From the IMG/VR virus record IMGVR_UViG_2645727991_000009: 7,574 bases of DNA. One strand, 5' to 3'. This DNA comes from a virus. Lineage: Duplodnaviria; Heunggongvirae; Uroviricota; Caudoviricetes. Numbering within the stretch: position 1 is the first letter of the stretch; the number at the start of each line of letters is the position of its first letter. The notes under the pieces were generated by a model. That model was not told the DNA's origin and ran no database searches. It saw only the letters and a list, made by a program, of their open reading frames with translations. The translations under genes were made by a program, and so were the position numbers. Below, piece by piece: positions 4,389 through 4,574 of the stretch.

Positions 4389-4574
4389 TTACTTAATTAT
4401 GTAATTCATACCCGAACGCTCTGTTGACAGCCTTCTTCTGCAGGCTTCAATAACCCACGCTGAAAAGTTACCGGAACCTTTATGTTCAAGGGCGATATTG
4501 ATCTGTTCAATCATGTGATTGGGGAAACGGATATTGCGGATTGTGGTTCTGCGGGTCCGGTTTTTCGATGACAT
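4389..4574 (-). CDS. YlcI/YnfO-like small prophage protein (DUF3950-like), possibly ribbon-helix-helix fold
   Basis: Minus-strand ORF of 61 aa with GAGGAA SD 6 nt before the ATG at 4574. The segment TIRNIRFPNHMIEQINIALEHKGSGNFSAWVIEACRRRL matches my memory of the YlcI/YnfO family found next to terminase genes in DLP12/Qin-type prophages. Its pattern (beta-strand, helix, G-x-S/N turn, helix) is consistent with an RHH DNA-binding fold. Confidence 0.7.
   Translation of the reverse strand: MSSKNRTRRTTIRNIRFPNHMIEQINIALEHKGSGNFSAWVIEACRRRLSTERSGMNYIIK

What the first reader, a model, noticed from the sequence alone, without database searches (positions are those of the whole stretch)
4389..4574. 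Opposite-strand RHH-like gene embedded in the late operon, divergent from the HNH gene
This is the only confidently called minus-strand gene in the window. Its start codon is only 41 bp from the HNH start, so late transcription would collide with it. The sequence pattern suggests a ribbon-helix-helix DNA-binding fold, the fold used by many antitoxins and small repressors. It may be expressed in the lysogen and regulate nearby sites such as the GTTAAC repeats.
Basis: partly seen in the sequence, partly recalled or inferred. Interest (0 to 1): 0.45.

Follow-up and report, generated by a model that had tools for sequence, protein, structure and literature searches.

The report
Known YlcI/YnfO ribbon-helix-helix prophage gene
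The minus-strand ORF is a real, strongly conserved small gene of the already-annotated but uncharacterised YlcI/YnfO (DUF3950) family, probably a ribbon-helix-helix DNA-binding protein, that lambdoid phages including lambda carry backwards just before their DNA-packaging genes; it is an ordinary, known prophage gene and what it regulates is still unknown.

Summary
ORF 4389-4574 (-) is a genuine gene, and its ATG lies 41 bp from the HNH ATG. It is the YlcI/YnfO family protein (Pfam DUF3950, E 8.7e-20). The surrounding 451 bp (4250-4700) is 100% identical to E. coli O157 prophage DNA where RefSeq annotates this CDS.

An 80%-identical copy sits 198 bp from lambda's right cos end. In all 80 viral contigs examined the gene is antisense to the lysis genes. 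Wherever upstream DNA was recognisable (72 contigs) it is divergent from the packaging module, either Nu1-type or HNH-TerS-type.

The ATGTTAAC repeats travel with the HNH-TerS module, not with this gene, so they are probably cosB-like terminase sites. No toxin partner is present.

Best reading: a small basic RHH regulator on its own antisense unit, expressed while the late operon is silent. Its target is unidentified. The gene is already known and of low-to-moderate interest. A side finding is that phage satellites fuse this domain to a TerS DNA-binding domain.

The parts
4389..4574 (-). ynfO/ylcI-like CDS (61 aa, pI 11.5). Layout: basic N-terminal arm aa 4-11; predicted beta-strand about aa 12-17 (I-R-N-I-R-F); helix A aa 19-32; loop G33-S-G-N36; helix B aa 37-49 or beyond; variable tail aa 50-61.
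   Evidence: family and annotation; purifying selection; fold; pI.
4581..4585 (-). Shine-Dalgarno GAGGA, 6 nt upstream of the ATG.
   Evidence: Read directly. Present in the commonest HNH-type upstream variants.
4609..4614 (-). Candidate -10 hexamer TAAAAT, abutting the HNH start codon. It has no good -35. This is a consensus resemblance only; the promoter scan did not call it.
   Evidence: Read. One search found no promoter-like site here. The hexamer is conserved in all HNH-type relatives.
4298..4392 (-). Structured 3' region of the ynfO transcript with two hairpins. The first includes the stop codon. Neither is followed by a U-tract, so neither is a canonical terminator.
   Evidence: MFE -34.2 kcal/mol, z-score -4.37, 0 of 200 shuffles fold as well.
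4616..4981 (+). HNH endonuclease gene of the HK97-type packaging module, the divergent neighbour. Context, not part of the ynfO unit.
5016..5196 (+). Probable cos region, belonging to the packaging module and not to ynfO. It holds a 30-bp segment (5016-5045) shared with a satellite's terS-upstream region, then five ATGTTAAC units (5075-5082 and 5189-5196 inverted; 5081-5088, 5149-5156, 5172-5179 direct).
   Evidence: (9 GTTAAC against 1.5 expected).
4119..4259 (+). Convergent 46-aa hydrophobic ORF (RefSeq WP_000347013.1). It lies next to ynfO in 44 of the 80 viral contigs. Any relation to ynfO is unknown.

Best explanation
The gene encodes a 61-aa, very basic protein of the YlcI/YnfO (DUF3950) family. 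It most likely folds as a ribbon-helix-helix dimer. In that model, residues about 12-17 of two chains pair into an antiparallel sheet that reads the DNA major groove (invariant Arg16, near-invariant Asn14). The invariant N36-F37-S38 cap of helix B contacts the phosphate backbone, and the Lys/Arg-rich N-terminal arm adds affinity.

The gene is a self-contained transcription unit placed against the flow of the late operon, at the boundary between the lysis/accessory region and the DNA-packaging module of lambdoid phages. This is the position and orientation typical of lysogeny-expressed 'moron' genes such as lambda bor.

The most likely mode of action is a small DNA-binding repressor or autoregulator made while the late operon is silent. 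After induction it would be shut off when Q-antiterminated late transcription runs through it head-on.

Shown: the gene is real, it belongs to the family, selection is strong, and position and orientation are conserved. Inferred from structure prediction: RHH fold and DNA binding. Inferred from orthologues and paralogues: expression in the lysogen and repressor activity. Unknown: its DNA target.
For: Family and reality of the gene:
- for family and annotation; for 26 synonymous against 6 non-synonymous changes.

Fold:
- The AF2 model has helices at 19-32 and 37-59.
- Nearly all of the 50 best-ranked Foldseek PDB matches are RHH proteins, including StnY, NikR, Arc, MazE6/9, ParD, CopG and HicB.
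- In the model of a paralogous fusion the N-terminal strand does form.
- Invariant or near-invariant residues are I15, R16, F17, I25, N36, F37, S38, W40, V41, A44 and C45. pI is 11.5.

Position and orientation:
- In all 80 IMG/VR loci the gene is antisense to Rz and lysozyme wherever these were recognised.
- In the 72 loci with recognisable upstream DNA it is divergent from the packaging genes: 55 Nu1-type and 17 HNH-TerS-type.
- The same arrangement holds in lambda, 434, DLP12 and Qin.

Expression outside the late programme:
- ylcI-ybcW is a convergent excludon in at least 50% of K-12 RNA-seq samples (PMC12288877).
- ydfO, downstream of ynfO, is expressed and inducible in K-12 (PMC4077768).
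- Genes antisense to late genes are typically lysogeny-expressed accessory loci (PMC7067206).

Repressor behaviour in the family:
- A 60-aa satellite paralogue (L006 5590-5772) has two TGGTACGTACCA palindromes flanking a TATAAT, a start codon directly after the second palindrome, and its own intrinsic terminator.
Against: - No RHH Pfam family is hit even at E <= 10. hhalign against Arc and Mnt gives the expected register but only E 0.024-0.12 and probability at or below 2%.
- No consensus sigma-70 promoter is called upstream.
- No operator-like palindrome lies near the gene, and no upstream motif is shared beyond chance between the HNH-type and lambda-type contexts. Homology between them stops essentially at the start codon.
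- There is no expression data for this prophage, and no functional study of any family member was found.
Confidence: 0.55

Rival explanations
1. Packaging or cos accessory factor. The protein would bind DNA beside cos, or bind the small terminase, and modulate cos recognition, cos cleavage, or protection of prophage cos sites.
For: - It is the gene next to the packaging module in all 72 loci with recognisable upstream DNA.
- It lies 198 bp from the lambda right end.
- In satellites the same domain is fused to a TerS DNA-binding domain that is 65% identical to this window's TerS N-terminus.
Against: - Essentially the same protein core is linked to two unrelated terminase and cos systems, Nu1-type and HNH-TerS-type.
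- The ATGTTAAC repeats follow the packaging module, not the gene.
- In the satellite, the DUF3950 genes lie about 4 kb from the cos-like segment.
- The gene is antisense to the operon that expresses the packaging proteins.
- The neighbouring lambda right-arm genes bor, lambdap78 and lambdap79 are listed as non-essential (table in PMC10695390). That minimal cos fragments also lack this ORF is my own knowledge, not a tool result.
Confidence: 0.12
2. Regulator or antitoxin-like partner of an adjacent cargo gene. The candidates are the DUF1398 gene ydfO/ybcV that follows it in some phages, or the convergent 46-aa hydrophobic ORF. In this window the partner would have been lost, leaving an orphan.
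For: - ynfO and ydfO are co-oriented, 57 bp apart, in Qin and in 16 of 80 viral loci.
- A database protein joins the two reading frames (P0161).
- The hydrophobic ORF accompanies ynfO in 44 of 80 loci.
- RHH is the commonest antitoxin DNA-binding fold (established knowledge).
Against: - The window holds no DUF1398 remnant (tblastn).
- Only about 11 residues follow the RHH core, too few for a toxin-binding tail.
- YdfO has no known toxicity. Its over-expression is reported to raise oxidative-stress resistance (as cited in PMC4077768).
- The hydrophobic ORF is on the other strand, not in an operon with ynfO.
- No PADLOC match for any of these proteins.
Confidence: 0.12
3. Mnt/Arc-like maintenance repressor of the antirepressor-type gene in the late region. 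That gene is the P22_AR_N protein at 2324-2893, with KilA-N or Bro proteins at the same position in relatives and satellites.
For: - The strand motif N-I-R-F-P matches Arc N-L-R-W-P and Mnt N-F-R-M-P in the hhalign register.
- A P22_AR_N + ORF11CD3 gene lies 1.5 kb away.
- In the satellites, the DUF3950 genes lie between alpA and the replication genes, the position the HES preprint calls the Bro zone.
- Enterobacter cf-PICIs list AntA/AntB next to YlcI/YnfO (PMC13612085).
Against: - Only 11 of 80 loci have an Ant or KilA-N gene within 3 kb.
- Lambda, 434, DLP12 and Qin have none.
- No shared operator was found. There is a single TGTTTAACAC upstream of the ant-like gene.
- No Pfam Arc match.
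Confidence: 0.08
4. The sequence is kept mainly as a conserved recombination joint between modules, with little current function for the protein in this phage.
For: - Mosaic joints lie inside the gene. The N-terminal variant follows the packaging module, and the C-terminal tail follows the lysis-side DNA.
- Homology to lambda ends at both borders of the 50-codon core.
Against: Synonymous sites are saturated while the protein is 88% conserved over the core. Selection therefore acts on the protein and not on the DNA, which is the opposite of what a pure DNA linker predicts.
Confidence: 0.08

Closest known systems
YlcI (DLP12) and YnfO (Qin) of E. coli K-12, and the unannotated lambda ORF at 48128-48304 (-); Pfam DUF3950 / NCBIfam NF041551
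   Same: Same family: about 80-87% identity over the first 53-59 residues by tblastn, and 88% over the 50-codon core. Same position as the last gene before the packaging module. Same antisense orientation.
   Different: - Here the divergent neighbour is an HK97-type HNH-TerS module 41 bp away, not cos plus Nu1/NohA about 390 bp away.
- The C-terminal tail differs.
- There is no DUF1398 or ybcW neighbour.
- No member has a known function.
Arc and Mnt repressors of phage P22 (RHH, immI region inside the late gene cluster)
   Same: Small RHH proteins encoded within a phage late region. The strand motif N-x-R-aromatic-P is similar. Mnt is the lysogen-expressed member (established knowledge).
   Different: There is no significant sequence-profile match. 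The ant-type gene is not adjacent. No operator was identified. Membership is not established.
Lambda bor and other 'moron' genes between Rz and cos
   Same: Same genomic compartment. Opposite strand to the late operon. Expected to have its own promoter and to be expressed in lysogens (PMC7067206).
   Different: Bor is a lipoprotein with a host-fitness role. This is a predicted DNA-binding protein, and it is far more widely conserved across module types.
RHH antitoxins and plasmid regulators (CopG, ParD, MazE N-domains, VapB12, HicB C-domain)
   Same: They are the best structural neighbours. phrog_497, HicB-like, is a weak hit at E 0.056.
   Different: There is no toxin partner, no toxin-binding extension and no operon.
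Rpp proteins of Gram-negative PICIs (TerS-DBD mimic plus dimerisation domain; PMC6739421)
   Same: This applies only to the satellite fusions found in passing, which join a dimerising domain to a TerS-like DNA-binding domain.
   Different: The window protein has no TerS-like domain. The fusions show no sequence match to solved Rpp structures.

Membership tests
YlcI/YnfO family (Pfam PF13132 DUF3950; NCBIfam NF041551) | Scores above the curated cut-offs of the family HMMs. | tested here: met
   PF13132 70.8 bits against 25. NF041551 35.1 bits against 30. All 27 aligned members hit PF13132.
YlcI/YnfO family (Pfam PF13132 DUF3950; NCBIfam NF041551) | Core motif [NG]-I-R-F-P ... N-F-S-A-W-V-[IL]-[ED]-A-C. 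| tested here: met
   Alignments A1 and A2. Invariant: I15, R16, F37, V41. Near-invariant: F17, I25, N36, S38, W40, A44, C45.
YlcI/YnfO family (Pfam PF13132 DUF3950; NCBIfam NF041551) | Lambdoid-prophage location between the lysis genes and the packaging module, on the opposite strand. | tested here: met
Ribbon-helix-helix (Arc/MetJ/CopG) superfamily | Beta-strand, helix A, G-containing turn, helix B topology. | tested here: inconclusive
   Helices A and B and the turn are modelled, but the strand is not formed in the monomer. It is formed in the paralogous fusion model. Structural neighbours are overwhelmingly RHH but individually weak.
Ribbon-helix-helix (Arc/MetJ/CopG) superfamily | Obligate dimer through an intermolecular two-stranded sheet. 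| not testable with these tools
No multimer predictor is available.
Ribbon-helix-helix (Arc/MetJ/CopG) superfamily | Sequence-profile similarity to a curated RHH family. | tested here: not met
   No RHH Pfam family at E <= 10 for any of 27 members. hhalign against Arc gives E 0.024, probability 2%; against Mnt E 0.12. No PDB sequence match.
Ribbon-helix-helix (Arc/MetJ/CopG) superfamily | Sequence-specific DNA binding. | not testable with these tools
   Needs EMSA, ChIP or SELEX. No candidate operator was found near the gene.
Type II toxin-antitoxin antitoxin | Co-oriented, adjacent toxin gene in one operon. | tested here: not met
   No co-oriented ORF with any family match lies downstream. 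No DUF1398 remnant. No PADLOC hit.
Type II toxin-antitoxin antitoxin | C-terminal toxin-neutralising extension. | tested here: not met
   Only about 11 residues follow the conserved core, and the tail varies between relatives.
P22 immI Arc/Mnt repressors | Controls an adjacent antirepressor gene through operators at its promoter; Pfam Arc match. | tested here: not met
   The ant-like gene is 1.5 kb away behind Rz. It is present in only 11 of 80 relatives. No Arc Pfam hit.
Rpp-like TerS mimic | Contains a TerS-type DNA-binding domain. | tested here: not met
   The window protein is DUF3950 only. The TerS domain occurs only in the satellite fusions P0200 and P0212.

The most novel reading that the evidence does not exclude
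The YlcI/YnfO RHH module might be a dedicated DNA-binding and dimerisation unit used in the contest between lambdoid helper phages and the satellites embedded in them.

Satellites use a stand-alone copy as their immunity-type repressor. They also use a copy fused to a helper-like TerS DNA-binding domain, which could be an Rpp-like device that occupies or retargets the helper's cosB (ATGTTAAC) sites.

The phage copy beside cos would be the ancestral or counter-acting partner, for example by guarding cos or sensing the satellite. On this reading lambda itself would carry an overlooked regulatory gene 198 bp from cos.
Probability: 0.1. Interest if true: 0.65.

Novelty: already known. Interest (0 to 1): 0.3.

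Why it matters
As it stands the finding matters little. The ORF is annotated under a family name in RefSeq in hundreds of E. coli genomes. It is one more small prophage regulator of unknown target.

Three modest points add value.
- The 'DUF' is very probably an RHH DNA-binding domain whose N-terminal strand lies outside the 30-residue Pfam model.
- Phage lambda carries an 80%-identical copy, under strong purifying selection, 198 bp from its right end. Several lambda records leave it unannotated.
- The gene marks a recombination joint between lysis-side and packaging modules.

If its target were found, it could explain what lambdoid prophages keep switched on beside cos. E. coli O157 genomes carry up to nine copies each.

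Tried and rejected
- Sequence search of the PDB with the protein, the family profile and the fusion found nothing meaningful.
- hhalign against Arc and Mnt gave the right register but was not significant.
- Promoter and terminator scans called no promoter for ynfO in the window or for ylcI in DLP12.
- A search for a common upstream motif between the HNH-type and lambda-type contexts found shared 7- and 8-mers only at the chance level.
- The satellite palindrome TGGTACGTACCA is absent near ynfO, and no inverted repeats lie in 4380-4760 apart from an AT-rich one at the stop codon.
- The idea that satellites acquired DUF3950 by capturing cos-flanking DNA was rejected. The cos-like segment lies next to the satellite terS, about 4 kb from its DUF3950 genes.
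- PADLOC defence models, Rfam and tRNA scans gave no hits.
- The literature search found no functional study of YlcI, YnfO or DUF3950. The lambda ribosome-profiling paper (PMC3718152) and a preprint mentioning lambdap79 are not held.
- TGTTTAACAC upstream of the ant-like gene is a single copy and not above chance once mismatches are allowed.

Full report
**What the window is.** The 7.5-kb window is the late region of a lambdoid E. coli prophage. Window 3500-5300 is 99.3% identical to Enterobacteria phage PPyecE_EH1910. Window 4250-4700 is 100% identical to prophages in E. coli O157:H7 chromosomes. On the plus strand the gene order is:
- holin, a YdfR-like gene, lysozyme;
- an antirepressor-type gene (P22_AR_N + ORF11CD3);
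- Rz, and small or decayed ORFs;
- then, after the target gene, HNH endonuclease (4616-4981), a 289-bp gap, TerS (5271-5834) and TerL (5831-7483).

**Checking the observation.** ORF 4389-4574 (-) exists and has an ATG start and a GAGGA Shine-Dalgarno sequence 6 nt upstream. Its start codon is 41 bp from the HNH start codon. Size alone proves nothing, because the window holds 86 ORFs of 30 aa or more. The evidence that this one is a gene is:
- It matches Pfam DUF3950 (E 8.7e-20), NCBIfam YlcI_YnfO_N (above cut-off) and phrog_949 (E 2.2e-31).
- RefSeq annotates the matching CDS as 'YlcI/YnfO family protein'.
- Against the lambda, 434 and DLP12 copies, the first 50 codons differ at 26 synonymous and only 6 non-synonymous positions. 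Synonymous sites are saturated and dN is 0.054.

The ORF is therefore a protein-coding gene under strong purifying selection. It is also the only minus-strand CDS annotated in this stretch, apart from an IS element that the window lacks.

**Fold.** No solved structure is detectable by sequence. Pfam's model covers only residues 21-49.

The family's invariant and near-invariant residues (I15, R16, F17, I25, N36, F37, S38, W40, V41, A44, C45) fall where an RHH protein has three things: its DNA-reading strand, its hydrophobic core, and the phosphate-contacting N-cap of helix B. This mapping is an inference from the well-known Arc, CopG and MetJ architecture. The protein is very basic, with pI 11.5.

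Several caveats apply:
- The monomer model does not form the strand, although the model of a paralogous fusion does.
- No RHH Pfam family is hit.
- hhalign to Arc and Mnt gives the expected register but is not significant.
- A dimer could not be modelled.

I take RHH as likely, at about 0.85, but not as proven.

**Distribution and anatomy.** The family is small. A search of 1.84 billion representative proteins found 103 clusters with E <= 0.001, and many of these look like frameshifted copies of the lambda/E. coli sequence.

A copy that is 80% identical at the protein level lies on the minus strand of phage lambda at 48128-48304. Its start codon is 198 bp from the right cohesive end, and several lambda records leave it unannotated. 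Phage 434 has it annotated as DUF3950. K-12 has ylcI in DLP12 and ynfO in Qin, each separated by a 388-bp gap from, and divergent with, nohD or nohA.

In all 80 IMG/VR contigs examined, the gene is antisense to Rz and lysozyme wherever these were recognised. In the 72 contigs with recognisable upstream DNA it is the gene immediately before the packaging module: 55 are Nu1-type and 17 are HNH-TerS-type. The downstream neighbour varies. It is a convergent 46-aa hydrophobic ORF in 44 loci and a co-oriented DUF1398 gene (ydfO/ybcV) in 16, with neither recognised in the other 20.

Homology between the window and lambda begins at the start codon and ends near codon 50. The N-terminal sequence variant follows the packaging module, while the C-terminal tail follows the lysis-side DNA. 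Module exchange therefore happens inside this gene.

**The GTTAAC repeats.** GTTAAC occurs 9 times in the window against 1.5 expected. Five of these lie within 5075-5194 as ATGTTAAC units, three direct and two inverted.

The cluster is present in every fetched locus that carries the HNH-TerS module. It is absent from lambda, 434, DLP12 and Qin. Their YnfO proteins share the invariant Asn14, Ile15, Arg16 and Phe17 of the predicted reading strand and differ there only at residue 12. The repeats therefore belong to the packaging module.

A 30-bp segment just upstream of them (5016-5045) is shared with the region upstream of a satellite's own terS. The layout is shared segment, then repeats, then terS, which mirrors lambda's cosN, cosB, Nu1. 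I read the repeats as cosB-like TerS sites. That is an inference.

**Expression.** No consensus promoter is called upstream. The only candidate is a TAAAAT hexamer at 4609-4614 that abuts the HNH start codon and lacks a good -35.

The indirect evidence is as follows:
- ylcI is transcribed from the cryptic DLP12 prophage and forms a convergent excludon with ybcW in at least half of the K-12 RNA-seq samples analysed (PMC12288877).
- ydfO, 57 bp downstream of ynfO in Qin, is expressed and strongly induced by an ionic-liquid stress (PMC4077768).
- Genes antisense to prophage late genes are typically independently transcribed accessory loci (PMC7067206).

The transcript's 3' region is significantly structured (z -4.4) but lacks a U-tract.

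**Hints from satellites.** Helper-embedded, PICI-like satellites are described in bioRxiv 10.1101/2022.07.18.500453. One of them is integrated in terL of a sister prophage (locus L006). These satellites carry DUF3950 genes between alpA and the replication genes, again antisense to everything around them.

One is a 60-aa stand-alone copy. Two TGGTACGTACCA palindromes flank a TATAAT upstream of it, its start codon follows directly, and it has its own terminator. That is the look of an autoregulated repressor.

The other is a fusion of DUF3950 to a domain 65% identical to this window's TerS N-terminus. This domain is modelled at pLDDT 98 and matches the SF6 small-terminase DNA-binding domain with TM 0.83. 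The fusion gene is preceded by GTTTAACAC-type direct repeats.

These findings support DNA binding and repressor activity in the family. They also raise, but do not establish, a link to packaging specificity analogous to Rpp (PMC6739421).

**Mechanism.** The best-supported explanation, at confidence 0.55, is a dimeric RHH DNA-binding protein made from its own antisense unit while the late operon is silent. It would act as a small repressor or autoregulator, and it would be silenced by head-on late transcription after induction. Its target is unknown. I found no operator near the gene and no motif shared between contexts.

The rivals are:
- A cos or packaging accessory factor (0.12).
- A regulator or antitoxin-like partner of neighbouring cargo that has been lost here (0.12). 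There is no DUF1398 remnant, only an 11-residue tail, and no PADLOC hit.
- An Mnt/Arc-like repressor of the late-region antirepressor gene (0.08). Such a gene is present in only 11 of 80 relatives.
- A recombination linker with little function (0.08). This is contradicted by protein-level selection.

**Novelty and verdict.** The gene and its family are already annotated, and no function has been published. The proposed link to the GTTAAC repeats and the antitoxin flavour are not supported. Interest is low to moderate, at 0.3. The more unusual items are the satellite DUF3950-TerS fusions and the overlooked lambda copy, and both lie outside the finding itself.

Noticed in passing
Locus L004 (lambda, reverse complement) 200-394, i.e. 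lambda 48110-48304 (-); tblastn match 48128-48304: Phage lambda carries an 80%-identical YlcI/YnfO ORF whose start codon is 198 bp from the right cohesive end. Several lambda and lambda-like records show no annotated feature under the match, while 434 and ev099 have it annotated as DUF3950 or YlcI/YnfO.
   Followed up: partly
L006 6001-6363, L007 6001-6363, L008 1447-1809, L003 4714-5103: Satellites (integrase, AlpA-like gene, primase) encode a fusion of DUF3950 to a TerS DNA-binding domain. That domain is 65% identical to this window's TerS N-terminus and matches the SF6 TerS DNA-binding domain with TM 0.83. The fusion lacks the TerS oligomerisation core. It may be an Rpp-like mimic for HK97-type helpers.
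   Followed up: partly
L006 5880-5990; L003 4595-4650: Direct-repeat arrays lie just upstream of the fusion genes: GTTTAACAC-type repeats, three to four copies, in L006, and GTGCACAAACAC, three copies, in L003. The L006 repeat resembles the helper's ATGTTAAC units.
   Followed up: no
L006 5540-5840: A 60-aa satellite DUF3950 gene has two TGGTACGTACCA palindromes flanking a TATAAT, a start codon directly after the second palindrome (leaderless-like), and an intrinsic terminator at about 5808-5836. This is the layout of an autoregulated repressor.
   Followed up: partly
window 5016-5196: This is probably the cos region. A 30-bp segment (5016-5045) is shared at 93% with the satellite's terS-upstream DNA (L006 1734-1763). 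It is followed by five ATGTTAAC units, including an 18-bp perfect palindrome CAGTTAACATGTTAACTG (5073-5090) and a 12-bp inverted repeat (5168-5179 / 5189-5200).
   Followed up: partly
window 4119-4259 (+): A 46-aa hydrophobic ORF (GRAVY 1.11; RefSeq WP_000347013.1) lies convergent with ynfO. It has no family match in Pfam, NCBIfam, PHROGs or PADLOC. It accompanies ynfO in 44 of the 80 viral contigs, in both packaging contexts.
   Followed up: partly
window 4389-4574 and loci L022-L101: Mosaic joints fall inside ynfO. The N-terminal variant (NQ...DLKG against NH...EHKG) goes with the Nu1-type or the HNH-type module. The C-terminal tail (STE[RS]SGMNYIIK, ATDATHLRP..., TSEKRAY...) goes with the lysis-side DNA.
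   Followed up: partly
window 2324-2893 (+) and 2151-2160: A P22_AR_N + ORF11CD3 antirepressor-type gene sits inside the lysis cassette between lysozyme and Rz. A sister prophage has a KilA-N + ORF11CD3 gene in the corresponding stretch between Rz and ynfO. A single TGTTTAACAC, the satellite repeat unit, lies upstream of it.
   Followed up: partly
window 3520-3762 (+): An 80-aa ORF matches only positions 96-172 of the 291-position phrog_2571, so it is probably a remnant of a larger gene. The whole stretch 3515-4388 looks decayed.
   Followed up: no
L012 3757-4458 (Qin) and 16 of 80 IMG/VR loci: ynfO is followed 57 bp later by the co-oriented DUF1398 gene ydfO (solved structure 2HH8, function unknown). 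This may be a two-gene antisense unit. ydfO is strongly stress-inducible in K-12 (PMC4077768).
   Followed up: partly
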